Of a DNA stretch of 62,884 bases, positions 3,754-42,983 are shown piece after piece. Position 1 is the first letter of the stretch; every line of letters starts with the position of its first letter. Both the position numbers and the translations under genes were made by a program. Origin of the DNA: Candidatus Binatia bacterium (GTDB lineage: Bacteria; Desulfobacterota; Binatia; UTPRO1); assembly GCA_039917665.1 (NCBI GenBank), contig JBDSJB010000104.1:1-62884 (forward strand), in the 5' to 3' direction. The notes below the pieces were generated by a model, which saw only the letters and a list, made by a program, of their open reading frames with translations, made no database searches and had not been told where the DNA came from.

Positions 3754-5345
3754 GCTGCGGTTCTCCTTGCGGGCAACGCGTGCGCCAACGCGTTCGCCAC
3801 CTCGTATGCGGCTCCATACCCCGGCAGGAAAGTCACGCCAGGGCCTGGATGACAGGACGCGCCGCAGAGATACAAGCCGGCGATCGGGGTCGCATGCGCC
3901 GAGCCTGGCACCATGAGCCGTCCGCCGATCATTTGATCCGGGTGAATCAGGCCGTGCGTGAAATCGCCGTTGGTCGCCCCCTGCATCGTCGCGAAGTGCT
4001 CGGACGAAAAGACGGCCCGCTCGACGATGCAGTCACGAAGATCGGGGAGGAACTCGCTCAGACGATCGAGGATGTGCTCCGCCATCGCGTCGCGGAGTCG
4101 CCCGCGCGTCTCCTTCGGCGCTTCGCAGGGGAAGAAGAAGCCGTAGGTCGTCGCGATGTGGAAACCCGCGGGGGCAAGGCTCGGATCCATGACGGTCGGG
4201 ATCTGCATCCCGACCGGTGGATGCTCGGGCACCTCGCCACGCCGGCACGCTTCGTAGCTGGCTTGCTGCAGCTCGGGATCGGGAGCCAGCGTCGTATTGA
4301 AGCGCGTCCTCGGGTCGGCGTTCAGATACTGAAATGGGGGCCCGTACTGCGGCAGACGCCGCAGCTTGAACAGGAGATGCACGTACGCGCCGCGGTGCTC
4401 GACGCGTTCGACCTTGTGAATTGTGTCGGCGTCGAGGTGTTCACGTCCTACGAGCCCGAAGAACGTGGCTGGCTTGTCGAGGTTCGAGAGCACCGCGCGC
4501 GCCGTGATGCAGCGGCCGTCGCGGAGCTCGACCCCGACCGCACATCCGTGTTCGATCAGCACGCGCCGGACCGGCGTCTTCAGCTGCACCTCTCCGCCTT
4601 TGTCCGCAATCGACCGCGCCAGCGCCTCGGAGAGCGAGCCCATGCCGCCCTTCACGCGCCGCATGAGCCCGCCGCCCTCATTCTGCGCAAACGTGTACAC
4701 GAGACAGAGCGCACTGCCCGGCGTGAACGGTCCTTTGTACGTCGATTGCACGGCGGCAAAGGCCACGAGGGCGCGGAGCGTTCGATGCTTGCGCGCGTCG
4801 GGGAGAAAGCGATCGACCAAATCCATCGCGCTGCCCGTGAATGCGAGCGTCAGCTGCTGCCGTTTGCGTTCGTCGGGCGCGCTCGCGAGCAGCTCAACGA
4901 GCGTCGGCGGGATGCTGCGCGGGGTGAACCGGTGCATCACGCTCGCCGGGTACTTGCAGAACGCCATCAGCCGGACGAAGCCCGTCATGGCCCGCACGCC
5001 GAAATGCCGGAGCACGTACAGGGCCATGCGCAGCGGATTCGAATAGAAGATCGCCGGCGGCGAGCTCGGCGAGTTCAGGTTCGACGCCATGATCGGGAGG
5101 TCGATGAACTCGACGCCATACCGCGCGAGCTCGAGCTCCTCCGCCACGCCCTTGGCCAGCGGAAAGAGCAAGCTCGCCCCGACGTCGTTCCGGCAGCCCG
5201 TCAGGATCTCACGCGTACCCGCCATGCCACCGACGTAGGCGTTCTTCTCGAGGCACAGGACGCGGAACCCACGCGCGGCAAGTAGAGCGGTCGCCGCCAG
5301 GCCGTTGTGCCCGGCGCCGATGACGATGACGTCACGGTCGGGAAT
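3750..5345 (-). CDS. FAD-dependent oxidoreductase, phytoene desaturase (CrtI)-like family
   Basis: Track ORF 3750..5225 continues upstream in frame through the dinucleotide-binding motif RDVIVIGAGHNGLAATALLAARGFRVLCLEKNAYVGG. There is no ATG/GTG/TTG/CTG between the in-frame TGA and that motif. The best start is ATT 5345, with GAGGA 4 nt upstream. Confidence 0.7.
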   Translation of the reverse strand: MPDRDVIVIGAGHNGLAATALLAARGFRVLCLEKNAYVGGMAGTREILTGCRNDVGASLLFPLAKGVAEELELARYGVEFIDLPIMASNLNSPSSPPAIFYSNPLRMALYVLRHFGVRAMTGFVRLMAFCKYPASVMHRFTPRSIPPTLVELLASAPDERKRQQLTLAFTGSAMDLVDRFLPDARKHRTLRALVAFAAVQSTYKGPFTPGSALCLVYTFAQNEGGGLMRRVKGGMGSLSEALARSIADKGGEVQLKTPVRRVLIEHGCAVGVELRDGRCITARAVLSNLDKPATFFGLVGREHLDADTIHKVERVEHRGAYVHLLFKLRRLPQYGPPFQYLNADPRTRFNTTLAPDPELQQASYEACRRGEVPEHPPVGMQIPTVMDPSLAPAGFHIATTYGFFFPCEAPKETRGRLRDAMAEHILDRLSEFLPDLRDCIVERAVFSSEHFATMQGATNGDFTHGLIHPDQMIGGRLMVPGSAHATPIAGLYLCGASCHPGPGVTFLPGYGAAYEVANALAHALPARRTAA

Positions 5346-6640: not shown

Positions 6641-6762
6641 GGCAGCGGATTGCCACTTTTGCGGCGGCGTGCGGAGCGCTTATGCCCCCAAGACAGCGTG
6701 TACACGGGCGGGCGCCGTGGCATTCGTCTTGCTCCCTCTGCTGGTCTGGAGGGCATGCACAC

Positions 6763-7011
6763 GTGGATAGACTCGCACCCGTCATTCGCGATCTTCGAAG
6801 CCGTCTCGGCCTCACGCAAGAAGAATTCGCTCACGCACTCGGCATCACGGTCAGCACCGTGAACCGTTGGGAAAAGGGCCATTCGGTCCCCAGCAAGTTG
6901 GCACGCGCGTCGCTGGCGCGCTTTGCCGGGCGCCGCGGCGTCGCGGTGGAAAGCCTTCTCGAAGATGCATCGTCGGACGGCATGGCGCCGCGTTCGAGCT
7001 CGGTCAACTAA
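6763..7011 (+). CDS. XRE/Cro-type helix-turn-helix transcriptional regulator
   Basis: IRDLRSRLGLTQEEFAHALGITVSTVNRWEKGHSVP is a classic HTH_3 pattern. Start placed at GTG 6763 (GGAGGG 9 nt upstream). The first 42 codons of track ORF 6637..7011 look non-coding. Confidence 0.55.
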   Translation: MDRLAPVIRDLRSRLGLTQEEFAHALGITVSTVNRWEKGHSVPSKLARASLARFAGRRGVAVESLLEDASSDGMAPRSSSVN

Positions 7012-10400: not shown

Positions 10401-10416
10401 AGCAATGCGCATGCCA
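10401..10416 (-). promoter_or_regulatory. candidate sigma54 (-24/-12) promoter upstream of the 7159..10224 gene
   Basis: The minus strand reads TGGCAT-GCGCA-TTGCT, against consensus TGGCAC-N5-TTGCW. It sits in a relatively AT-rich intergenic region about 175 nt upstream of ATG 10224. Confidence 0.45.
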
Positions 10417-27226: not shown

Positions 27227-27461
27227 AGTGTTCGCAGCTTGCGAACGGAGGACGCGTACCATGGGCCATCTCGACGCGCAAGAAACACAGGATTAGTCAG
27301 GATTCTGACCCCAGCGCGAAGCATGGTGGCGAAGGACGGGCAAGTGCCAGAACGCGCGCGCGCGTCAAAATTGCCCGCACCCGAACGGCGTCAAGTGTCA
27401 ACTTTGTATCGTTGCAGGATGCTGTGTGATGCGAACGGTCGCGTGAACCCTCGCATCTGCG

Positions 27462-27477: not shown

Positions 27478-27556
27478 ACGCTAGTGGCCTGTCGTTTGCT
27501 GTCCCTCACTTCGTCCAAGCGATGGGACGAACTCACGGGGTCGAAGGAGACGCGAC

Positions 27557-28030
27557 ATGATGGAGAGCCAGGCCGGCGAGCGAGCGACGCTCGACATGAT
27601 GACCGAATCGGAACCGCGTCGCATTCCTGTGCGCGACAGCCTGAGCGACCTGCTCGGCCCAGACGTGATCCTGCCGCAACAGTTCTTCGAGGGGCCCCGG
27701 TGCGACAGCGACTTCTCCCCGGAGAAGGCTCTCATGCTCGCCATCCTGGAGGATGCGATCCGCTGCTTCCAGGAGTACTTCCGAACTACACGCGCTCGGC
27801 CGCGCATGCTGTCCCGACAGGCGGAGCGCTGGATCCGCACGCGTGACTGGAACTGGCCCTTCTCGTTCAACAACGTCTGCGAAGCACTCGGCATCGATTC
27901 GGACTGTATGCGAGATGCCTTGCTCCGAATGAAGTACGAGCACTTGATGACGCAGGAGCGCCCGCGGACCTACACGCGCCCGGCGCGCATCGTTCGCCTG
28001 AATGCGCGGGCCAAAGGCGGGAAACGCTAA
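27557..28030 (+). CDS. small uncharacterised protein, paralog A of the 40003..40332 product
   Basis: AAGGAG lies 7 nt upstream of the ATG. Residues 56-125 align ungapped with residues 14-83 of the 40003..40332 protein (30/70 identical by hand). No family recognised. Confidence 0.7.
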   Translation: MMESQAGERATLDMMTESEPRRIPVRDSLSDLLGPDVILPQQFFEGPRCDSDFSPEKALMLAILEDAIRCFQEYFRTTRARPRMLSRQAERWIRTRDWNWPFSFNNVCEALGIDSDCMRDALLRMKYEHLMTQERPRTYTRPARIVRLNARAKGGKR

Positions 28031-35097: not shown

Positions 35098-36441
35098 TTG
35101 TTTCGGCTATCAATCGATACCAGGAGTGTCAAGCTGCGGAACGCGTCGAATGGCATTTTTAGGGCCATACTGCTCGCTGTTCTCACGCTCGGCTCCACCG
35201 CCACGGCTACCGACATGAGCGCGTCGAGTACGGCGCGAGAGACCTTCTCGGTCACCTACGACGTCACGATCGATGCCGCGGATCCTGCCCACGCGCGGGT
35301 GCGGTGGGAGCTCTCCGGTATCGACGAAATCGAACGCGTCCGACTCAGATTCGACCCAGAGCGATTCGAAGGCTTCGCGGGCAGCGGAACACTCGAGCGT
35401 CGTCGCGGGGAGATCGTCTGGACGCCGAACGGTCCCTACGCGGAGCTGCGCTACGTCGTGAACGTCGAGCATCGCCGCGTGTCAGGCAAAGGATACGACA
35501 GCCATGCGGGCGACGGTTGGATCTTGTCGCGCACGAGCGGCTTCTTCCCGCGGAGCGCCGTCCTTTTTCGAAGAGAGGTCGAGGCGCATCCGGAATCGCG
35601 TGCCCGACTCGTCCTGCGACTACCGTCGGAGTGGACCTCGGCTACGGTCATGCGGTCCGAAAGCAACGCGCACTACCTCGTCGAGACGCCGCGGCAGCGT
35701 TTCGATCATCCCCGCGGCTGGCTCGCGTTTGGTCGCTTGAAGCGCACCGACGCCACGGTCGCCAACACCGCATTGAGCATCGTCCGTGTTCCCGGTGTCA
35801 CGAACCGGGTCGAGCCCGTCCTCGAGTTGATGCAGCAGGCCCTGCCGATGGTCGCTACGCTGTTCGATCACTCCCTGGCTCGCCTCCTCATCGTCATCGC
35901 CCCCGATCCGATGTGGCGTGGAGGCCTGAGCGGGGAGGAGTCCTTCTACATGCACGCGGACCGGCCCCTCCGATCGCCCGATTATACGAGTCCCTATCTC
36001 CACGAGCTCTTTCACGTCGCGGCGCCATTTCGACCTCAGGCCGATGCCCATTGGGTGACCGAGGGCCTCGCGGAGTACTACTCCGTCGAGCTGCAACGCC
36101 GGATGGGCACGCTTTCCGAAGGCCACTTCCAACGCGCCCTCGAGCTCTTCGCCGAGCACGGCGTCTGGAACCAGGACTTCACCCACACGTCGGAGCCCGC
36201 CCTTCGCAACAACAGCGCCCCCCTGGTCATGTACGTACTCGATCAACGAATCCGGGCAGCCACCGGCAATCAACGCGGACTCGATGCGGTCGTCTCGAGC
36301 CTCGCCCGAGATGGCGGTCCCGTCTCGACGGCGCACTTCCTCGGGACCATCCAGCGGGTCTCCGGCAAGAGCTTCGCGAGCTTCTTTCGGCGCCACGTCT
36401 ATCGGGGTGAGCAACCCGCGATTTCCTCCTGGGCCCGCTGA
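35098..36441 (+). CDS. secreted gluzincin metallopeptidase (M1/M61-like HExxH..E)
   Basis: YLHELFHVAAPFRPQADAHWVTEGLAEYY (HExxH plus a downstream Glu); signal-like IFRAILLAVLTLGSTATA. The start is uncertain: track TTG 35098 is only 16 nt from the tRNA-Val 5' end, while CTG 35134 has AGGAG 7 nt upstream. Confidence 0.7.
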   Translation: MFRLSIDTRSVKLRNASNGIFRAILLAVLTLGSTATATDMSASSTARETFSVTYDVTIDAADPAHARVRWELSGIDEIERVRLRFDPERFEGFAGSGTLERRRGEIVWTPNGPYAELRYVVNVEHRRVSGKGYDSHAGDGWILSRTSGFFPRSAVLFRREVEAHPESRARLVLRLPSEWTSATVMRSESNAHYLVETPRQRFDHPRGWLAFGRLKRTDATVANTALSIVRVPGVTNRVEPVLELMQQALPMVATLFDHSLARLLIVIAPDPMWRGGLSGEESFYMHADRPLRSPDYTSPYLHELFHVAAPFRPQADAHWVTEGLAEYYSVELQRRMGTLSEGHFQRALELFAEHGVWNQDFTHTSEPALRNNSAPLVMYVLDQRIRAATGNQRGLDAVVSSLARDGGPVSTAHFLGTIQRVSGKSFASFFRRHVYRGEQPAISSWAR

Positions 36442-36518: not shown

Positions 36519-38105
36519 ATGATCGCCGGGATGCGCATCGTCCCGTGGCGTTCCCTGCGCCTGCGCCTGATCGTCTTACTCGTGCTCTCCGTCGTCTGCG
36601 TCCTCGCCGCAGCGACGGCGCTCGAGATTCGCCTCTCCACGCGCCTCGCTGAGCGCAATCTCCAGGAACGCGCGCTCACGCTGGCGAAGGAGATCGATAT
36701 CCTCCTCGGCTCGCTGTGGGGCCGCACCGACCTGCGCAATTTTCACCATCGCTTGGCCGAGCTCGCCCGAACGCACCGCAACGTCGCCGACATCGAGATC
36801 CTCCTACCGGTTCGCGATCAATGGCGCCTGCTCGGGAGCTCGGGCCGCGCCGCGCCGACCGAGCCCATCGCGCTCGATCGTTTGGCGATGGAGCTCGATC
36901 AACCGATCTGGCAACTGCTGCCCGGAAGCTCGCATTTGGGTCTCGCCGTCGCGCCATTCCACCTCGGGCAACGGGTGATCGGGGCCATCCGCGTGAAAGC
37001 CTCCTTGTCCGAGGTCGAACGCCTCGCCAACGTCCAGGCCCAGCGCGCGTTGCTGCTGGCACTCTTCTCCGTCCTCGGTATCGCCGGCGTGCTCGGCGTC
37101 ATTCTCACGCGGACGATCGCCCGCCCGGTCGGATTGCTCGTCGACGCCATGAACGCCGCTCGGGCCGGCCACCTTGATACGCGCGTCCAGCTCCGCGGCA
37201 GCGACGAGCTCCAGCAACTCGGCGACCACTTCAACAGCATGCTCGAAACGATCGCACGGGCCGATCACGAGAAGCGCGAGTTGGTGGATCGCTTGAGCCG
37301 CTTCAACGACGAGCTCGAAAGCAGGGTCGCTGGCGCCACCGCGGACATCGCGGCCAAGAATCTCGAACTGCAACGGATCAACGAACAGCTCTGGCACGTG
37401 CAGAAACAACTCGGTCGCGCTGAACGATTGGCCGCCCTCGGTCAGATGACGGCCGCGATCGCGCACGAGCTCGGGACGCCACTCAACTCGGTGCTCGGCT
37501 ATACGCAATTGCTCGCCAAGGAAGTCACGACGCCCGACGGGCGTGAGAAGCTCGCGATCATCGAGTCCCAGGTTCGGGTCATGAGCCAAGCGATCCGCAA
37601 CGCGCTGGATCAGACACGCACGCCCAGCCTCGAGCGACGGCCAGTCGCCGTCGCGGGATTGATCGAGGAGACGCTCGCGCTTCTGGCCCCGGCGCTCAGC
37701 GCCAAGGGGATCGGCGTCGAACGCCAACTGGACGCCGCCCCAGCCGTCATCGCCGCGGATCCGCGCGGCTTGCAGCAAATCCTGCTGAACGTGCTCACCA
37801 ACGCCGTCGACGCGCTGGATCCGGGCGGACACATACGCGTCCGCGCCGACGTGCATCAGCCGAACGGCGGTCCTCCCGGCCTGCGTATGCGCATCACCGA
37901 CGACGGGAAGGGCATCGCGCCCGGAGATTTGGAGCACATCTTTCAGCCCTTCTTCACGACCAAGGAGATCGGCCGCGGTACGGGCCTCGGGCTGACGATC
38001 ACCCAGGACATCGCGCGCGCGCACGGTGGAACGGTCAAGGTCGAGAGTCGCCTCGGCGGCGGGACGACCATCGACATCACGATCGGCGGCGGAGCCAGCG
38101 CGTGA
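36519..38105 (+). CDS. sensor histidine kinase (TM-sensor-HAMP-HisKA-HATPase)
   Basis: N-terminal TM segment; second TM plus HAMP (ARPVGLLVDAMNAARAGHLD); H-box AAIAHELGTPLNSV; N, G1 and G2 boxes (LLNVLTNAVDA, DDGKGI, GTGLGL). Confidence 0.9.
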   Translation: MIAGMRIVPWRSLRLRLIVLLVLSVVCVLAAATALEIRLSTRLAERNLQERALTLAKEIDILLGSLWGRTDLRNFHHRLAELARTHRNVADIEILLPVRDQWRLLGSSGRAAPTEPIALDRLAMELDQPIWQLLPGSSHLGLAVAPFHLGQRVIGAIRVKASLSEVERLANVQAQRALLLALFSVLGIAGVLGVILTRTIARPVGLLVDAMNAARAGHLDTRVQLRGSDELQQLGDHFNSMLETIARADHEKRELVDRLSRFNDELESRVAGATADIAAKNLELQRINEQLWHVQKQLGRAERLAALGQMTAAIAHELGTPLNSVLGYTQLLAKEVTTPDGREKLAIIESQVRVMSQAIRNALDQTRTPSLERRPVAVAGLIEETLALLAPALSAKGIGVERQLDAAPAVIAADPRGLQQILLNVLTNAVDALDPGGHIRVRADVHQPNGGPPGLRMRITDDGKGIAPGDLEHIFQPFFTTKEIGRGTGLGLTITQDIARAHGGTVKVESRLGGGTTIDITIGGGASA

Positions 38106-39439
38106 CGCCGAACCTCCTGGTCATCGACGACGACGCCGTCACCCGCGAGCTTCTGACTGAGGTCTTGCAAGACGAGGGGTACACCGTCGAGGCATGCGAA
38201 AGCGGAAAGCTCGCGTTGGAGCGCGCCGCGCACGATACCTTCGATCTCGCCATCACCGACGTCCGGATGCCCGAGATGGATGGCATCGCCGTCACGCAGG
38301 CCCTGAAAGCGCAGCAACCTGCGCTGCAGGTCATCGTGATGACGGCGTTCGGCTCGGTCGAGACCGCGGTCGAGGCCATTCGGCATGGCGCCTTCGATTA
38401 CGTCAGCAAGCCGATGAACCTGGACGAGATCAAATCGACGGTACGACGCGCGCTGGCGGAACGGCATCTGACGGACGCTCCCTTCGAAGGGGGAACCCCG
38501 ATCAGCGACACGAGTGTCGTCATCGGCCGCAGTCCCGCCATGGTCGAGGTGTACCGCACCCTCGCGCGCGTCGCGCCGTCACGCAGCACCGTACTGATCG
38601 AAGGCGAGAGTGGAACTGGCAAGGAGCTCATCGCGGCGGCACTGCACCGCCACAGCGACCGTGCCGGTGGACGCTTCGTCGCCGTCGATTGCGGATCGCT
38701 CACGGATTCCCTGCTCGAGTCCGAGCTCTTCGGCTATGTCCGCGGCGCCTTCACCGGTGCGGTCGGCGAGAAGAAAGGTCTCTTCGAAGAAGCGACCGGC
38801 GGAACGATCTTTCTCGACGAGATCGGCGACATCGGGTCATCGATGCAAGCCAAGTTGCTGCGCGTGCTCCAAGAGTACGAAATCAAGCGCGTCGGCGGGC
38901 ACGAGTGGATCCCCGTCGACGTTCGCGTCGTCGCCGCGACCAATCGCCACCTCGAACACCTCGTCGAGAAGGGTACCTTTCGCGAGGATCTTTTCTATCG
39001 CCTGAAGGTCGTCATCATCACCTTGCCCCCGCTCCGTGATCGACGGGAGGACATTCCCCTCCTGGCCGAGTACTTCGTGCGCCGTTATGCCGCGCGGAGC
39101 GGCAAGGCCATCGCGCGGGTGACGCCCGAGGCCATGCAGCTCCTCACCGACCAAACCTGGCCCGGTAACATTCGAGAGCTTGAGCACTCCATCGAGCGCG
39201 CCGTGGCCTTGGCGAATGGCCAGGTGCTCACGCCCGACGATCTCGCTCCAGAGCTCAAGGGCAGCGTCGACTCGGCGCTCTTCCGCGGCGCCCCGACGCT
39301 CGAGGAGGTCAAGCGCCGCTACCTAGCGCACGTGCTGCAGGAGACCGGCGGCAACATCTCGCGCGCGGCTAGCATTCTCGGCGTCGAACGACGGTCGCTG
39401 CAGCGGATGCTCCGCCGGTACGGCTTGCGAGAGTCCTGA
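38102..39439 (+). CDS. sigma54-dependent response regulator (NtrC family bEBP)
   Basis: GTG start overlaps the HK stop (GTGA). Receiver LLVIDDD..DLAITDVRMPEMDG; AAA+ GESGTGKE; GAFTGA loop; C-terminal Fis-type HTH GNISRAASILGVERRSLQRMLR. Confidence 0.93.
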   Translation: MTPNLLVIDDDAVTRELLTEVLQDEGYTVEACESGKLALERAAHDTFDLAITDVRMPEMDGIAVTQALKAQQPALQVIVMTAFGSVETAVEAIRHGAFDYVSKPMNLDEIKSTVRRALAERHLTDAPFEGGTPISDTSVVIGRSPAMVEVYRTLARVAPSRSTVLIEGESGTGKELIAAALHRHSDRAGGRFVAVDCGSLTDSLLESELFGYVRGAFTGAVGEKKGLFEEATGGTIFLDEIGDIGSSMQAKLLRVLQEYEIKRVGGHEWIPVDVRVVAATNRHLEHLVEKGTFREDLFYRLKVVIITLPPLRDRREDIPLLAEYFVRRYAARSGKAIARVTPEAMQLLTDQTWPGNIRELEHSIERAVALANGQVLTPDDLAPELKGSVDSALFRGAPTLEEVKRRYLAHVLQETGGNISRAASILGVERRSLQRMLRRYGLRES

Positions 39440-39596
39440 GGCTTTCTGCCCCGCTGCCTGCGTCATTCGACCGCAGCGACCCAAATGGCTGATTTCATTT
39501 TGGTTTAGACACGGCGCGTTGGCTGCCTGCGACCTTTGATCCGGGAAGCCTCCATCATGACCGGGCCAAGTCATCGTTTTTATTCATCACGCGCGC

Positions 39597-39612
39597 TGGC
39601 ACCATGGTTGCT
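39597..39612 (+). promoter_or_regulatory. sigma54 promoter, perfect consensus
   Basis: TGGCAC-CATGG-TTGCT against consensus TGGCAC-N5-TTGCW. It lies in the 39440..39627 intergenic region immediately downstream of the bEBP gene. Confidence 0.6.
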
Positions 39613-39627
39613 CATGCATCAGTCACG

Positions 39628-39996
39628 ATGCGCATTCTGGTCATCGACGACGATGCAACATTCAGCCGCTACCTCGCCGAGGTGCTCACGCATCTCGGCC
39701 ACGATGCGGAGTCGGTGACCGACGGGCTCGTCGGCTTCGAACGCTGCCTCCGTGACCCGTACGACGTCGTGATCTGCGACGTGCGCATGCCGCTGATTCT
39801 CGGCACCGAGTTGGTGTCCGAGCTGCGGCGAGATCTGCCCGAGCTGCCCGTAGTGCTGATCTCGGCCTTCGCCGACGAGCAGCTGGAAGCGCAGGCACAT
39901 GAACGCGGGGCCTGGCTCCTGTCCAAGCCCTTCGATGCTGCGGTGTTGGGAGAAGTGCTGCAACGAGCGACCGGGCCGCAGCCCCTCGCTTCATAA
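39628..39996 (+). CDS. single-domain response regulator (CheY-like receiver)
   Basis: MRILVIDDDATF..DVVICDVRMP..VVLISAF..LSKPF. ATG 39628 is preferred over track ATG 39604, which lies inside the sigma54 promoter. Confidence 0.85.
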   Translation: MRILVIDDDATFSRYLAEVLTHLGHDAESVTDGLVGFERCLRDPYDVVICDVRMPLILGTELVSELRRDLPELPVVLISAFADEQLEAQAHERGAWLLSKPFDAAVLGEVLQRATGPQPLAS

Positions 39997-40002
39997 GGAG
40001 AC

Positions 40003-40332
40003 ATGATGACGAACGAACCTGCAACGATCCCTCTCGAGCGCGAGAGACGCCTCGTGCTCGCGATTCTCGAGGAAGCAGTTCGCAGCTACCAACGGTACGC
40101 CTTCGCCACCAACCGCCGCGGACGCCGCCTGTTCGGCGAGACCTGTGAATGGTTCGACGCGAAGGACGATCCCTGGATTTTCTCATTCGAGAACATCTGT
40201 CACGCACTGGATCTCGATCCCGACCACATCCGTGAGGGCCTCGCCCGTTGGCGCCGCGATCAAGCCCCGCGCCGTCCACTCGTCACCGTTCCCGTCGCGC
40301 CGGGCTACCGCCTGCGCCGCGCGGCCGGTTGA
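40003..40332 (+). CDS. small uncharacterised protein, paralog B of the 27557..28030 product
   Basis: Starts 6 nt after the receiver gene. LVLAILEEAVRSYQRY..W..DPWIFSFENICHALDLDPDHIREGLARW shares the core with paralog A. Confidence 0.7.
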   Translation: MMTNEPATIPLERERRLVLAILEEAVRSYQRYAFATNRRGRRLFGETCEWFDAKDDPWIFSFENICHALDLDPDHIREGLARWRRDQAPRRPLVTVPVAPGYRLRRAAG

Positions 40333-40348
40333 GCGGGAGCACCTTTAG

Positions 40349-40410
40349 CGCGCACTTAGGGGAGTGCGCGTGCGTCGGCGGCTGGCATGAATTGCCGCCG
40401 CCGACGCTTT
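40349..40410 (+). terminator. two consecutive GC-rich hairpins after paralog B
   Basis: Hairpin 1: CGCGCACT-TAGGGG-AGTGCGCG (40349-40370). Hairpin 2: GCGTCGGCGGC-14 nt-GCCGCCGACGC (40372-40407), followed by TTT. Confidence 0.5.
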
Positions 40411-40426
40411 CCGCCTAGAATGCCCC

Positions 40427-41419
40427 ATGGCTGAAGCGAAGCGCCGCGCCAAGCGTGCGGTACCCCCACGCAACGTGAACACTCTGCTGATAGAGGAGGC
40501 GTTCGCGACCTGGCTTCCGCCGGCGGTCGGTGCCGTCATCCTCGGCGCCACCATGCTGCTCGACGCGCTTGGGCTGATTGCTGAACCGATCGCGGCCCTG
40601 AGCGCGGTCTTCGCGCTCCTCATCCTCGGCATTTCGACCGCGCTCGGATCGTTACTGCGCGATGCTCATCCGCGGCTCGGCCCCGTTGCGCTCGCGGGTG
40701 TGGCTCTGGCGTGGATCATCGTGTTCGCCCTGCCCTTCAGCCTAAGACTTTTCCCCGGTCCGCCAGTCGCCACGACCTCACTCGAAGCGAAGCCCGCGAA
40801 TCCCGTGCTGCCGATCGGGGAAGGCCGGTTCGATCTCGTTCTGGATGCTCACCTCCCCCCCGCGACCGAGCACCAGACGCGCCAGCTGCACTATGCGCTG
40901 ACGCTGACCGATGGCGCTGGCCAATCGCAGCACTACGACGGGGAGCTCGGCGATCAATGGCAAACGCGACGCCTTGGGCGCCGCGGAACCGCACCCGTGC
41001 ACCTCGAGCATCTCTCCGCGACGCATGAGGTGGACTATCCCGCTGGTGGGACCGTGCGCCTCGACGACGTCGCGGTCTCCGGCATTCCCGAAGCTTCGGT
41101 CGCCGCGTCCTTCTACCATCGCCGCGTCCCTGGGTTGCTGTGGCTACTCGGGGGCGGGATCCTGCTCGGCATCGCTGCTCTCACCTTCGACCTGTGGTGG
41201 GACCCGCAACGCACGCCGACCGCAGCACTCCTGACGGCGACAGCCACGGGAGCCGTCGTCGTCTTCTGCAGCTCGGCCGCAGGCCATCCCGGGCTCCGAC
41301 AGGTATTCGGTTCGACCATCGTCGGCGGCATCGCCGGTGTCCCGACGATCGGCATCGTCGCATGGTTGGTGCGACGCTTCCCGGCACTCCGCCGCATCGC
41401 GCCCGGGCGCGCGACCTGA
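40427..41419 (+). CDS. integral membrane protein with central extracytoplasmic domain, unknown function
   Basis: 330 aa. N-terminal and C-terminal hydrophobic helices flank a soluble region of about 120 aa. No family recognised. Confidence 0.55.
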   Translation: MAEAKRRAKRAVPPRNVNTLLIEEAFATWLPPAVGAVILGATMLLDALGLIAEPIAALSAVFALLILGISTALGSLLRDAHPRLGPVALAGVALAWIIVFALPFSLRLFPGPPVATTSLEAKPANPVLPIGEGRFDLVLDAHLPPATEHQTRQLHYALTLTDGAGQSQHYDGELGDQWQTRRLGRRGTAPVHLEHLSATHEVDYPAGGTVRLDDVAVSGIPEASVAASFYHRRVPGLLWLLGGGILLGIAALTFDLWWDPQRTPTAALLTATATGAVVVFCSSAAGHPGLRQVFGSTIVGGIAGVPTIGIVAWLVRRFPALRRIAPGRAT

Positions 41420-41435
41420 CATTCCGAGGCCGCGG

Positions 41436-42491
41436 ATGGCTGAGCCGGCCACGTCCGAAGACCTCGCGGCACCGGTCCCACCCGTAGAGCGAGGCGGCCG
41501 CCGCTGGGTGGTTTGGCTCGCGGTATTCGGCGCGAGCGTTCTCGTCATCCTGGTCGCCCGCGCGGACCTCGATCAACTGATGCGCACCGCGCGCGGCATC
41601 GCGCCCGCGCTGCTGATGCTGCCGGTGCTCGCCACCGTCGGCAGCTACCTCACGATGGCCTGGTCCTACCAAGGCATCGCCCGCGCCGCTGGCTACACGT
41701 TGCCGTTCGCCGAGATGTGTCGCATCACGCTCGTCGCCAATACGGCGAATTATCTGCTCTCGACTGGAGGGCTCTCCGGGTTCGCGCTTCGCATGTACCT
41801 CTTCGCCCGACGCGGCATTCCAGCCGGCAGCGCCGTGCTGATCTCGCTCGTCCAAACCCTACTCACCAACCTCATTCTGCTGATCTTCGTGGGCTGGGGA
41901 TTCGTATTGTTGCTCTTCTCCCACCATCTGGTCGGCCGCGATCTCATCGCTGCGACCGTCTTGCTGGTCGCTTTCAGCCTCGTCGTAGTCGCCATGTGCA
42001 TCGCGCTACTCCGGCGGCGCTGGCGCCGCAGGCTTCTCTACGCGACGACCCTCTTCCTCGATCGCGTTCTCGAGCGCGTCGCGCCCCACCGACGACCGCC
42101 GCGTGCGACGCTCCGACGCTTTCGACACAACCTCAACGTCGGGTTCGATTTCCTGTTGCAGCGTCCGCACGACATGCTGGGCCCGACCGTCTACATCGTG
42201 TTCGACTGGCTCTTCACGTTGCTCGTGCTCTACAGCGCATTCGTCGCGATTGGATCGCCGATCGCCATGAGCCACGTGATCGCCGGCTTCGCAATCGGGA
42301 TGTTCTTCTCGATCGCGTCGCTGGTGCCGGGCGGCCTCGGGATCATGGAAGGGTCCATGGCGGCGGTCTTCGTCGGTCTCGGTGTGCAGTACGAGCAAGC
42401 CGTGGTGGCGATCCTGATCTTTCGCGCCGCCTACTACGGCCTGCCGATCATCGCGAGCCTGATGCTCGCACCGCGCATGCTGCGGACGTGA
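41436..42491 (+). CDS. flippase-like membrane protein (lysylphosphatidylglycerol synthase TM region / UPF0104-like)
   Basis: ATG 41436. Multi-TM protein with ANTANYLLSTGGLSGFALRMYLF and GGLGIMEGSMAAVF patterns typical of this family (tentative). Confidence 0.55.
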   Translation: MAEPATSEDLAAPVPPVERGGRRWVVWLAVFGASVLVILVARADLDQLMRTARGIAPALLMLPVLATVGSYLTMAWSYQGIARAAGYTLPFAEMCRITLVANTANYLLSTGGLSGFALRMYLFARRGIPAGSAVLISLVQTLLTNLILLIFVGWGFVLLLFSHHLVGRDLIAATVLLVAFSLVVVAMCIALLRRRWRRRLLYATTLFLDRVLERVAPHRRPPRATLRRFRHNLNVGFDFLLQRPHDMLGPTVYIVFDWLFTLLVLYSAFVAIGSPIAMSHVIAGFAIGMFFSIASLVPGGLGIMEGSMAAVFVGLGVQYEQAVVAILIFRAAYYGLPIIASLMLAPRMLRT

Positions 42492-42506: not shown

Positions 42507-42983
42507 TCAGCGGGCGGGTCGGTCGAACTTGCCGGCGCGCGCGTCCGCTTCGAGGGCCTTGATCTTACCGACGCGTCGAACGTGCCGCTCGGCGTGCGAG
42601 AACCGCGCTACGAGGAAGGCGCGCAAGCATTCCGCGGCCGCCTCTTCGCCGATCACCCGCGCCCCGAGACAGAGCACGTTGAGATCGTCGTCCTCGACGC
42701 CTTGTCGCGCCGAAAACGTATCGTGGCAGAGCGCCGCACGCGCACCCGGCACCTTGTTTGCCGCGACCGATGCCCCGACGCCGCTGCCGCACACGAGGAC
42801 GCCACGCTCGGCGCGGCCCTCGACGACCGCGGTCGAAACGGCTCGCGCGAAGTCGGGATAATCCGACGGGGTGGTGTCGAACCCCCCGCAGTCGACGATC
42901 TCGTGCCCAGCCGCCTGCAGCTCACGCGCCATGCGCGCTTTCAGCGGGAACCCCGCATGGTCGCAACCGACGGCGATGATCAC
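42507..42983 (-). CDS. rpiB: ribose-5-phosphate isomerase B
   Basis: [53 protein letters not shown]. The start overlaps the tkt stop. Confidence 0.93.

What the first reader, a model, noticed from the sequence alone, without database searches (positions are those of the whole stretch)
40003..40332. Uncharacterised small-protein family present twice in the window (40003..40332 and 27557..28030)
Seen: residues 14-83 of the 109-aa protein align without gaps to residues 56-125 of the 157-aa protein at 27557..28030. I count 30/70 identities by hand. The shared core is L-x-LAILE(D/E)A(I/V)R-x-(F/Y)Q-x-Y ... W ... W-x-FSF-x-N(V/I)C-x-AL-x-(I/L)D-x-D-x-x-R-x-x-L-x-R. The FSFxNxCxALxxDxDxxR part reads like a helix-turn-helix. 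Both genes have good ribosome-binding context. One follows a CheY-like receiver by 6 nt, behind a consensus sigma54 promoter. The other stands alone between tRNA-Pro and ihfA. I do not recognise the family.
Basis: seen in the sequence. Interest (0 to 1): 0.7.

Follow-up and report, generated by a model that had tools for sequence, protein, structure and literature searches.

The report
Uncharacterised small helical proteins behind sigma-54 promoters
Two real, strongly conserved small genes in this window belong to a very large protein family that matches no described family or solved structure, and each sits behind its own conserved sigma-54 promoter, which suggests small regulators that nobody has studied.

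Summary
A (40003..40332, 109 aa) and B (27557..28030, 157 aa) are paralogues: 30/71 identities, E=2e-17.

Both are real genes. dN/dS is 0.01-0.19 against orthologues in Candidatus Binatia metagenome-assembled genomes.

Neither matches Pfam, NCBIfam, PHROGs, PADLOC, PDB sequences or PDB folds. Yet a profile of the family finds 10,270 clusters (50% identity) in 1.84 billion proteins. It is a large, undescribed, multi-copy family.

TGGC and TTGC are kept while the spacer varies in 22 of 30 orthologous loci. The CheY-A unit has one too (39597..39611), kept in most orthologous loci.

A tracks the adjacent histidine kinase and NtrC-type activator, not the receiver, which is missing in some orthologues. 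Other paralogues sit in suf/Rrf2, DegP, Usp, glutamate-cysteine ligase and activator contexts.

AlphaFold gives a confident four-helix core whose last two helices have helix-turn-helix geometry, but no HTH family is matched significantly. One cysteine is invariant (444/445).

Best guess: small DNA-binding (or polymerase/activator-binding) regulators made on sigma-54 activation. The function is inferred, not shown.

The parts
40003..40332 (+). Gene A, 109 aa. Family member with a four-helix core (residues 9-87) and a basic tail.
   Evidence: ORF and translation. Paralogy with B. Orthologues at 65-98% identity. dN/dS 0.015-0.19. AlphaFold model pLDDT 84, core 90-98.
27557..28030 (+). Gene B, 157 aa. 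Family member with an extra N-terminal PDxxLPxQF motif, the same core (residues 55-133) and a basic tail.
   Evidence: ORF. 161 homologues. Synteny surE / B / ihfA / pheT in about 30 loci. dN/dS 0.013-0.145. AlphaFold pLDDT 80, core 94-97.
39597..39611 (+). Sigma-54 -24/-12 promoter (TGGCACCATGGTTGC) of the receiver-A unit.
   Evidence: The only exact match in the 62.9-kb window. TGGCA[CT]-N5-TTGC is kept at the same place in 26 of 37 A-type loci, with a variable spacer. No sigma-70-like site upstream.
27485..27499 (+). Sigma-54 -24/-12 promoter (TGGCCTGTCGTTTGC) of B, 58 nt before its ATG.
   Evidence: TGGC-N7-TTGC found upstream of B in 22 of 30 orthologous loci with variable spacers. Background is 0.046 hits per kb per strand. 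No sigma-70-like site upstream.
39628..39996 (+). Single-domain CheY-like receiver, co-transcribed with A. The longest ORF starts at 39604, inside the promoter, so the likely start is 39628.
   Evidence: Pfam Response_reg, E=1.8e-20. Present in most A loci but absent in L081/L082 and L113.
38102..39439 (+). NtrC-family sigma-54 activator (receiver + AAA+ + Fis-type HTH), the probable activator of the promoter at 39597.
   Evidence: Pfam Sigma54_activat E=1.4e-68, Response_reg, HTH_8. Generic AtoC/NtrC/ZraR-like, below the curated cut-offs. Always upstream of A.
36519..38105 (+). HAMP histidine kinase, overlapping the activator gene by 4 nt.
   Evidence: Pfam HAMP, HisKA, HATPase_c. Conserved with A.
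35098..36441 (+). 447-aa protein with no family match, always upstream of the kinase.
   Evidence: No Pfam or NCBIfam hit. Conserved at 52-93% identity in A loci.
39437..39475 (+). Two dyad elements just after the activator's stop codon, about 125-160 nt upstream of the -24 element. Candidate enhancer sites.
   Evidence: Conserved blocks in the alignment of 16 A-unit upstream regions. TGAGGC-N5-GCCTCA is near-perfect in several orthologues. Their function is inferred.
27296..27406 (+). Conserved upstream elements of B: palindrome GTCAGGATTCTGAC (27296-27309), CGCGTCAAAATTG (27361-27373) and GTGTCAACTTTG (27395-27406). Candidate enhancer sites.
   Evidence: Conserved islands in the alignment of 18 B upstream regions. 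GTGTCAA is kept even in divergent loci. Their function is inferred.
40348..40407 (+). Two tandem GC-rich hairpins after A, the probable end of the receiver-A transcript.
   Evidence: RNA fold -56.6 kcal/mol, z = -5.06, 0 of 200 shuffles as stable. No T-tract, so the terminator scan does not call it. A sigma-70-like site follows at 40392..40421.

Best explanation
A and B are two paralogues of a very large, undescribed family of small, stand-alone proteins.

The shared unit is a core of about 80 residues with four helices: a long helical hairpin followed by a short helix, a turn and a long helix. B and most of the wider family also carry a short N-terminal motif (PDxxLPxQF). A disordered, strongly basic C-terminal tail follows in most Binatia members.

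In this genome, a Candidatus Binatia bacterium, each copy is the product of its own sigma-54 promoter. It is therefore made only when an enhancer-binding protein fires.

For A the likely chain is as follows. The adjacent HAMP histidine kinase phosphorylates the adjacent NtrC-type activator. The activator binds the dyads just downstream of its own gene. It then opens the sigma-54 promoter at 39597, and a short transcript encoding a CheY-like receiver and A is made and ends at the hairpins after A.

B is a single-gene sigma-54 unit with different upstream elements, so probably a different activator.

The most likely job of the proteins is as second-tier regulators. The last two helices would bind DNA as a helix-turn-helix, probably as a dimer, helped by the basic tail. 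The single invariant cysteine in the first HTH helix may be a structural residue or a thiol switch.

What is shown:
- paralogy;
- purifying selection;
- absence from known families;
- the size and multi-copy nature of the family;
- conserved gene contexts;
- conserved -24/-12 elements;
- a confident helical fold.

What is inferred:
- sigma-54 dependence in vivo;
- which activator acts on which promoter;
- DNA binding;
- any role of the cysteine.
For: - **Paralogy:** E=2e-17.
- **Real genes:** dN/dS 0.013-0.19 over 17 pairwise comparisons, and good ribosome-binding sites.
- **Family size:** 10,270 clusters at E<=1e-3 and 5,844 at E<=1e-10 among 1.84 billion representatives. 4,513 hits in the word-indexed search. 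At least 552 loci in species-representative genomes, with two to three copies per MAG visible among the top 80 alone.
- **No known family:**
- **Fold:** four helices, core pLDDT 90-98.
- **HTH hints:** the sequence FENICEALGLDPEYLRRGL has a small residue, Gly and hydrophobic residues at the classical HTH positions (read from the sequence). Sub-threshold hits are almost all HTH families and fall on that stretch: HTH_29 in 6 of 101 members, HTH_23, PaaX, HTH_Tnp_1.
- **Sigma-54 promoters:** conserved with variable spacers. No sigma-70-like site upstream of either unit.
- **A is the conserved output of the kinase/activator pair:** this holds even where the receiver is missing.
- **Paralogues each in their own conserved operon, as is usual for families of transcription factors:** suf/Rrf2 in two different gene orders, Rieske/MoaA, DegP-YchF, Usp/HPF, glutamate-cysteine ligase, bEBP.
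- **Tails:** pI 12.
Against: - No HTH family reaches significance. hhalign against Fis-type HTH domains gives 0.35% probability. Foldseek against the PDB gives nothing better than E=0.85.
- The core is not basic (pI 6.1 for A, 7.7 for B). The putative recognition helix has only one invariant Arg.
- In suf operons a bona fide regulator (Rrf2) is already encoded next door. A second DNA-binding regulator there is less obviously needed, so an accessory or partner role is possible.
- The receiver's start lies only about 5 nt after the predicted transcription start, an unusual leader.
- No shared upstream motif links the A and B promoters.
- Nothing was tested experimentally.
Confidence: 0.45

Rival explanations
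1. The proteins bind other proteins, not DNA. They would act as small adaptors or feedback modulators of the transcription machinery: the activator's AAA+ domain, sigma-54, the polymerase or the co-encoded receiver. The model here is PspA acting on PspF or HrpV on HrpS. A would then close a feedback loop on the adjacent kinase/activator system.
For: - A is the conserved product of a sigma-54 promoter placed directly after the activator gene. From established knowledge, that is the layout of known negative-feedback partners of such activators.
- Some paralogues sit directly before an activator gene (L064, L065).
- The core is near neutral. It has conserved acidic residues (E56, E65, D66) and short linear motifs at both ends (N-terminal PDxxLPxQF, C-terminal YRL..R) that look like docking peptides.
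- No HTH family is matched significantly.
Against: - Most paralogues, including B and the dominant suf/Rrf2 type, have no activator, receiver or sigma-54 promoter nearby.
- There is no similarity to PspA, HrpV or other known modulators.
Confidence: 0.25
2. The family is a thiol- or iron-sulfur-linked sensor or accessory protein. The invariant cysteine, with a second cysteine in most members, would carry a redox switch, a persulfide or a bridging cluster. That would tie the family to Fe-S assembly and thiol homeostasis. A and B would be sigma-54-controlled versions.
For: - One cysteine is present in 444 of 445 members and a second in 83%. The A clade has moved the second cysteine to another helix rather than losing it.
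- Paralogues are embedded in Fe-S and thiol contexts in several independent gene orders: cysteine desulfurase-IscA-SufB-Rrf2-FAM (FAM = the family gene); FAM-Rieske-Rrf2-SufCDSU; FAM-DUF971-Rieske-MoaA; and beside glutamate-cysteine ligase.
Against: - Only one cysteine is obligatory. 26 members lack both second positions, too few ligands for a conventional cluster unless it is shared in an oligomer.
- The invariant cysteine sits at the small-residue packing position of the putative HTH, so it may be structural.
- The contexts of A and B have no Fe-S or thiol genes.
- The distance between the cysteines in the models could not be measured, because coordinates are not exposed.
Confidence: 0.2
3. 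The receiver and A together form a split response regulator. The stand-alone receiver would be phosphorylated by the kinase and would then dock on A, which serves as its detached output domain.
For: The receiver and A are 6 nt apart, co-transcribed, and co-conserved in most orthologous loci.
Against: - The receiver is absent in the 65-76% identical orthologues L081/L082 and L113, where A directly follows the activator.
- B and nearly all other paralogues have no receiver neighbour.
- No fusion of the family to a receiver was seen among the top 150 representatives, all 108-242 aa.
Confidence: 0.1

Closest known systems
Fis and the C-terminal DNA-binding domain of NtrC-type activators (Pfam HTH_8)
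   Same: Small all-helical unit in which long helices are followed by a short helix, a turn and a recognition helix. The stretch C-E-A-L-G-(I/L)-D-x-x-x-(L/M)-R-x-x-L lines up in register with A-x-x-L-G-V-D-R-x-x-L-x-R-x-L of the activators in these loci.
   Different: There is no statistical support: hhalign probability 0.35%, no Pfam HTH_8 hit and no Foldseek hit to Fis or NtrC structures. The family has its own invariant residues (L59, W92, C108, R119 in B numbering) that are not HTH_8 hallmarks.
Transposase-type and winged HTH domains (Pfam HTH_29, HTH_23, HTH_Tnp_1, PaaX)
   Same: These are the only recurring sub-threshold Pfam hits. Where the matched coordinates were reported (PaaX, HTH_Tnp_1) they fall on the last two helices.
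   Different: The best E-values are 0.009-0.15 per protein, far below the gathering scores. Only 6 of 101 members hit HTH_29.
Uncharacterised proteins of uncultured Caudovirales phages (BFVD A0A6J5LQ74, A0A6J5S871, A0A6J5S2T1 and others)
   Same: The only significant fold matches: E=2e-4, probability 1.00, TM 0.65/0.68, 21-26% identity, similar length.
   Different: They are uncharacterised too. No PHROG matches A or B, and tblastn of the family consensus finds nothing in 50,697 phage genomes. The link is structural only.
Hypothetical 96-97 aa proteins on MOBH/MPF_F conjugative plasmids of Marinobacter and Microbulbifer (WP_041335755.1, WP_152456537.1); a Vibrio tubiashii plasmid gives a similar match over the core
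   Same: Sequence relatives of the core, 35-38 bits against the family profile. They keep the W...PFSF..C...G(V)DP motif and the invariant Cys and Trp.
   Different: They lack the invariant Arg of the last helix and the N- and C-terminal motifs. They sit between VWA and toprim genes in a plasmid backbone. They are unannotated and unstudied.
Small feedback partners of sigma-54 activators (PspA/PspF, HrpV/HrpS)
   Same: As in those systems, a small protein is made from a sigma-54 promoter next to the activator gene. This is an analogy from established knowledge, with the layout seen.
   Different: There is no sequence or fold similarity, and most family members are not near activators.

Membership tests
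Any curated protein family (Pfam-A, NCBIfam, PHROGs, PADLOC) | Profile match at or above the curated or significance threshold | tested here: not met
   A and B have no hit better than E=0.15. For 101 diverse members, the best is HTH_29 at E=0.0089 in 6 members and nothing in NCBIfam below 0.009. The precomputed Pfam column is '-' for all listed hits.
Helix-turn-helix DNA-binding domains | Significant sequence-profile similarity to an HTH family | tested here: not met
   Only sub-threshold hits. hhalign against Fis-type HTH gives 0.35% probability. PDB profile searches return noise only.
Helix-turn-helix DNA-binding domains | Short helix, tight turn and longer helix packed on a helical core, with the classical small/Gly/hydrophobic pattern | tested here: inconclusive
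   AlphaFold gives A H62-68 / 4-residue turn / H73-87 and B H104-111 / turn / H115-133, with pLDDT above 93. The family consensus places Cys, Gly and Leu at the expected positions.
Helix-turn-helix DNA-binding domains | Fold similarity to solved HTH proteins | tested here: not met
   Foldseek against the PDB gives a best E of 0.85 (A) and 1.2 (B). XRE, ClgR and homeodomain entries appear only at E above 1.8 with TM 0.2-0.3.
Helix-turn-helix DNA-binding domains | Binds DNA | not testable with these tools
   Needs EMSA, DAP-seq or ChIP.
Sigma-54-dependent transcription units | -24 GG and -12 GC elements (TGGC-N7-TTGC) at exact spacing upstream of the gene | tested here: met
   TGGCACCATGGTTGC at 39597..39611 is the only exact match in the window. 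TGGCCTGTCGTTTGC lies at 27485..27499.
Sigma-54-dependent transcription units | The elements are conserved in orthologous loci beyond the background conservation of the flanking DNA | tested here: met
   B: 22 of 30 loci, with spacers differing while TGGC and TTGC stay invariant. Background is 0.046 hits per kb per strand. A: 26 of 37 loci.
Sigma-54-dependent transcription units | A cognate enhancer-binding protein and upstream binding sites | tested here: inconclusive
   For A, an NtrC-type activator is encoded directly upstream, and conserved dyads lie about 125-160 nt before the -24 element. For B, conserved palindromic elements exist but no activator gene is adjacent. Binding was not tested.
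Sigma-54-dependent transcription units | Transcription requires sigma-54 and an activator | not testable with these tools
   Needs transcription start mapping or a reporter assay. No rpoN gene was looked for in the window.
Iron-sulfur or thiol-switch regulators (Rrf2/IscR, WhiB-like, Spx-like) | Homology to one of these families, and a conserved set of three to four ligand cysteines or a CxxC motif | tested here: not met
   No profile match. Only one cysteine is invariant (444/445) and a second is present in 83%. No CxxC motif.
Response-regulator output domains (split regulator with the adjacent receiver) | Constant pairing or fusion with a receiver domain | tested here: not met
   The receiver is absent in L081/L082 and L113. 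There is none beside B or most paralogues. No fused forms appear among the top 150 representatives.

The most novel reading that the evidence does not exclude
This is a new class of small, cysteine-dependent transcription factors or cofactors, with tens of thousands of members and relatives on phages and conjugative plasmids. They would act as terminal outputs of sigma-54 activator cascades and of stress and Fe-S operons in Binatia and other uncultured phyla, through a fold and mechanism not represented in the PDB.
Probability: 0.2. Interest if true: 0.7.

Novelty: new variant of a known kind. Interest (0 to 1): 0.5.

Why it matters
A family with more than 10,000 clusters at 50% identity and no model in Pfam or NCBIfam is a real gap in annotation. 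It also has no solved relative and no significant PDB fold match. It has stayed invisible mainly because it lives in uncultured lineages such as Binatia.

Two handles make it testable. First, members are the direct and sometimes sole products of conserved sigma-54 promoters placed next to a kinase/activator pair. That gives a defined input-output circuit that could be rebuilt in a heterologous host. Second, other members are embedded in suf/Rrf2, DegP, Usp and glutamate-cysteine ligase operons and carry one invariant cysteine, which points to a stress or redox role.

Even the modest outcome would improve annotation of thousands of metagenomic genes. That outcome is a new HTH-like regulator family worth a Pfam entry. 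It would also help to describe sigma-54 regulons in a phylum with no cultured member.

Tried and rejected
- **Known-family searches: all negative.** Pfam, NCBIfam and PHROGs on A and B; Pfam and NCBIfam also on 101 diverse members; PADLOC on A and B.
- **PDB sequence-profile searches with two alignments:** noise only.
- **Foldseek of both models against the PDB:** nothing below E=0.85. Only the viral predicted-structure library gave matches, to uncharacterised phage proteins.
- **hhalign of the family against Fis-type HTH domains** collected from activators in the fetched loci: right register but 0.35% probability. I therefore do not file the family under HTH_8.
- **Shared enhancer motif between the A and B promoters:** none of 9 nt or more. 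A common activator is not supported.
- **Obligatory cysteine pair:** rejected. Only one cysteine is obligatory.
- **Sigma-54 promoters as a family-wide property:** rejected. They precede the B clade, the A clade and a few others (L021, L064, L065, L068), not the suf, DegP or Usp types.
- **Measuring Cys-Cys distances in the models:** not possible, because no coordinates are exposed.
- **tblastn of the family consensus against phage genomes:** no hit.
- **Literature searches** ('Binatota' with 'sigma-54'; DUF3150/VWA/toprim/conjugative): nothing relevant.
- **Names in public sources:** all 'hypothetical protein'.
Full report
**1. The observation**

Both ORFs are present as described. A is at 40003..40332 (+, 109 aa) and B at 27557..28030 (+, 157 aa). 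BLASTP aligns A 14-84 with B 56-126 without gaps, 30/71 identical, E=2e-17 for the single comparison.

Both have strong Shine-Dalgarno sequences: AAGGAG 5 nt before A's ATG and GAAGGAG 8 nt before B's. A six-frame search of the window with a family profile finds only these two copies.

There is a shared basic C-terminal tail, (Y/V)RL..R. B-type and most other members also carry an N-terminal PDxxLPxQF motif that A lacks.

**2. Real genes**

A has 57 and B has 161 homologues in the word-indexed search. The few named ones are 'hypothetical protein' from Candidatus Binatia, 'Deltaproteobacteria bacterium' and, in single cases, other metagenome-assembled genomes, so the window is probably from a Binatia genome.

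Nei-Gojobori dN/dS against nine A orthologues is 0.015-0.19. Against eight B orthologues it is 0.013-0.145. dS is near or above 1, so the ratios are rough, but the direction is unambiguous.

**3. No known family, but a very large one**

- Pfam, NCBIfam, PHROGs and PADLOC give nothing for A or B.
- Scanning 101 diverse members one by one gives only sub-threshold hits. The recurring ones are HTH families (HTH_29 in 6 members, best E=0.0089; HTH_23; PaaX). NCBIfam gives noise.
- Profile searches of PDB sequences give noise.

A profile of 101 A/B-type sequences, scored against 1.84 billion cluster representatives, finds 10,270 proteins at E<=1e-3, 5,844 at E<=1e-10 and 294 at E<=1e-30. A broader profile finds 4,513 hits among the 8,000 candidates scored.

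The best 80 are nearly all MAGs labelled Binatia or 'Deltaproteobacteria'. Some are labelled Syntrophobacteraceae, Verrucomicrobiia, Udaeobacter, Acidiferrales, UBP10 or Margulisiibacteriota, and several MAGs appear with two or three copies. Ten sampled clusters carry no name other than 'hypothetical protein'.

**4. Fold**

AlphaFold2 with these alignments gives confident models. A has mean pLDDT 84 (90-98 over residues 11-90) with helices 9-32, 38-52, 62-68 and 73-87. B has pLDDT 80 (94-97 over the core) with helices 55-74, 80-94, 104-111 and 115-133. B's N-terminal 50 residues and both tails have low confidence.

The last two helices have helix-turn-helix geometry. The consensus F-E-N-I-C-E-A-L-G-L-D-P-E-Y-L-R-R-G-L puts Cys, Gly and hydrophobic residues at the classical HTH positions. 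This is my reading of the sequence.

The HTH reading is not statistically supported:
- Foldseek against the PDB gives nothing better than E=0.85. XRE, ClgR and homeodomain entries appear only as noise-level hits.
- hhalign against Fis-type HTH domains taken from activators in the fetched loci aligns the turn and second helix in register, but at 0.35% probability.

The only significant fold matches are uncharacterised proteins of uncultured Caudovirales in the viral predicted-structure library (E=2e-4, probability 1.0, TM 0.65/0.68).

By sequence, tblastn of the family consensus finds nothing in phage genomes. It does find 96-97 aa hypothetical proteins on MOBH/MPF_F conjugative plasmids of Marinobacter and Microbulbifer, lying between VWA and toprim genes. 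These score 35-38 bits against the family profile and keep the W...PFSF..C...GxDP core. Two Vibrio plasmids gave weaker tblastn matches that I did not examine further. Pfam gives them only HTH_Tnp_1 at E=0.039.

**5. Conserved residues**

Over 101 diverse representatives (24% mean identity), L59, W92 and C108 (B numbering) are invariant. R119 is 100/101, and E56, A62, L64, F102, S103, F104 and L122 are at least 95%.

In 445 aligned members the cysteine is present in 444. A second cysteine (B C70) is present in 83%. The A clade has Ser there but a Cys two residues before the invariant Trp. 26 members have neither, so only one cysteine is obligatory.

The cores are near neutral (pI 6.1 for A, 7.7 for B), while the tails have pI 12.

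**6. Context of A**

Pfam confirms the layout: a HAMP histidine kinase (36519..38105), an NtrC-type activator (38102..39439), a single-domain receiver, then A. These are followed by a 330-aa membrane protein with no family and a flippase-like LPG_synthase_TM protein.

The same order recurs in the A-type loci L081-L118 (37 loci, excluding the unrelated L083): unknown 447-aa protein, kinase, activator, receiver, A, membrane protein, flippase-like protein. Contig ends truncate it in some. In L081/L082 (65% identical A) and L113 the receiver is absent and A directly follows the activator. There A is followed by convergent rpiB/tkt and is the only gene of the unit. A therefore tracks the kinase/activator pair, not the receiver.

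An exact TGGCAC-N5-TTGC lies at 39597..39611. It is the only exact match in the window; with one mismatch allowed there are 6 matches, against 3.2 expected by chance. TGGCA[CT]-N5-TTGC recurs at the same position, with varying spacers, in 26 of 37 A-type loci. Where the receiver is missing it lies 84 nt before A.

The motif overlaps the longest receiver ORF. The receiver therefore probably starts at 39628 (MRILVIDDD), only about 5 nt after the predicted transcription start. This spacing is conserved.

Just after the activator's stop codon lie conserved dyads: 39437..39452, near-perfect TGAGGC-N5-GCCTCA in several orthologues, and 39459..39475. They sit about 125-160 nt upstream of the -24 element, the usual place for enhancer sites. 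That they are enhancer sites is an inference.

No sigma-70-like promoter precedes the unit. After A come two very stable hairpins (40348..40407, -56.6 kcal/mol, z=-5.1) and then a sigma-70-like site at 40392..40421. The sigma-54 transcript is therefore probably just receiver plus A.

**7. Context of B**

B lies between surE/tRNA-Pro and convergent ihfA-pheT. This arrangement is kept in about 30 loci, down to 44% protein identity.

TGGC-N7-TTGC is found at the corresponding place in 22 of 30 B loci, with spacers that differ between loci. The background rate of the pattern over 1.8 Mb of fetched DNA is 0.046 per kb per strand, and these promoter hits are themselves included in that count.

Further upstream, three blocks are conserved: GTCAGGATTCTGAC (27296..27309), CGCGTCAAAATTG (27361..27373) and GTGTCAACTTTG (27395..27406). 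The GTGTCAA core is kept even in divergent loci.

No sigma-70-like site is found upstream. The A and B upstream regions share no motif of 9 nt or more, so different activators are likely.

**8. Other paralogues**

Clustering the neighbours in 127 loci, with Pfam checks, shows several further conserved contexts, where FAM marks the family gene:
- cysteine desulfurase-IscA-SufB-cysteine desulfurase-Rrf2-FAM-lipid A acyltransferase-like. This type accounts for about 23 of the 80 genome loci; the 152-aa proteins that top the broad profile search are the same length as its members and probably belong to it, though their contexts were not checked;
- FAM-Rieske-Rrf2-SufC-SufD-SufS-SufU;
- FAM-DUF971-Rieske-MoaA;
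- Usp-FAM-Usp-HPF/cold-shock;
- FAM-DegP-YchF;
- beside a glutamate-cysteine ligase;
- FAM-activator.

Sigma-54 motifs precede only the A clade, the B clade and a few others. The family is not tied to receivers or activators in general. Its contexts lean towards stress, redox and Fe-S functions.

**9. Interpretation**

The following are secure: paralogy, reality of the genes, novelty of the family, its size, the conserved sigma-54 promoters, and the link of A to the kinase/activator pair.

The function is inferred. I favour small DNA-binding regulators (about 0.45) for four reasons: the HTH-like geometry, the exclusively HTH-type weak hits, the basic tails, and the pattern of one paralogue per conserved operon. 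A protein-binding adaptor or feedback role (0.25) and a thiol or Fe-S-linked role (0.2) remain open and are not mutually exclusive with regulation. A split response regulator is unlikely (0.1).

**10. Novelty and score**

The family itself is undescribed. The likely kind, a small helical regulator under sigma-54 control, is familiar, so I rate it a new variant of a known kind.

Interest is 0.5. It is a sizeable annotation gap with a testable circuit, but the function is unknown and no surprising mechanism has been demonstrated.

Noticed in passing
It is conserved in 22 of 30 orthologous loci, with variable spacers.
   Followed up: yes
window 27296..27406: Three conserved upstream blocks before B's promoter: palindrome GTCAGGATTCTGAC, CGCGTCAAAATTG and GTGTCAACTTTG. 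They are possible enhancer sites for an unidentified activator.
   Followed up: partly
window 39437..39475: Conserved dyads start at the activator's stop codon (TGAGGC-N5-GCCTCA type, then TGCGTC-N5-ACCGCA). They could be enhancer sites or a stem-loop ending the activator gene.
   Followed up: partly
window 39597..39640: The longest receiver ORF (start 39604) overlaps the sigma-54 promoter. The likely start, 39628, leaves a leader of only about 5 nt with no Shine-Dalgarno sequence, while A has a strong one. This spacing is conserved in orthologues and suggests unequal translation of the two genes.
   Followed up: partly
window 28027..28030: B (+) and ihfA (-) converge, and their stop codons overlap (CTAA). 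Sigma-54-driven transcription of B would therefore run antisense into ihfA. The gap is 10-500 nt in orthologues, so the overlap is not conserved.
   Followed up: no
window 35098..36441: A 447-aa protein with no Pfam or NCBIfam match is always encoded directly upstream of the kinase in A-type loci (52-93% identity). It is another uncharacterised component of this two-component module.
   Followed up: partly
window 40427..42491: A 330-aa membrane protein with no family is followed by a flippase-like LPG_synthase_TM protein. Both are conserved downstream of A but are probably on their own sigma-70-like promoter (40392..40421). They may hint that the system deals with the membrane.
   Followed up: partly
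L032:1131-7564 and L151:603-7666 (also L033-L062, L130, L136, L150-L156): Other family members are embedded in suf Fe-S assembly operons next to an Rrf2 regulator, in two different gene orders. This type accounts for about 23 of the 80 genome loci.
   Followed up: partly
L166:4986-5279, L167:4878-5168: Distant relatives of the family core (35-38 bits) are encoded on MOBH/MPF_F conjugative plasmids of cultured Marinobacter and Microbulbifer. They lie in a conserved AAA ATPase-DUF3150-VWA-x-toprim block. A Vibrio tubiashii plasmid hit matches the same core segment at the same identity but was not examined.
   Followed up: partly
window 10402..10416 (-), 6718..6732 (+), 3773..3787 (-), 6899..6913 (+), 42747..42761 (+): Five further one-mismatch matches to TGGCAC-N5-TTGC. 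The total of six is not more than chance gives (3.2 expected; 14 of 100 shuffles reach 6). They were not examined.
   Followed up: no
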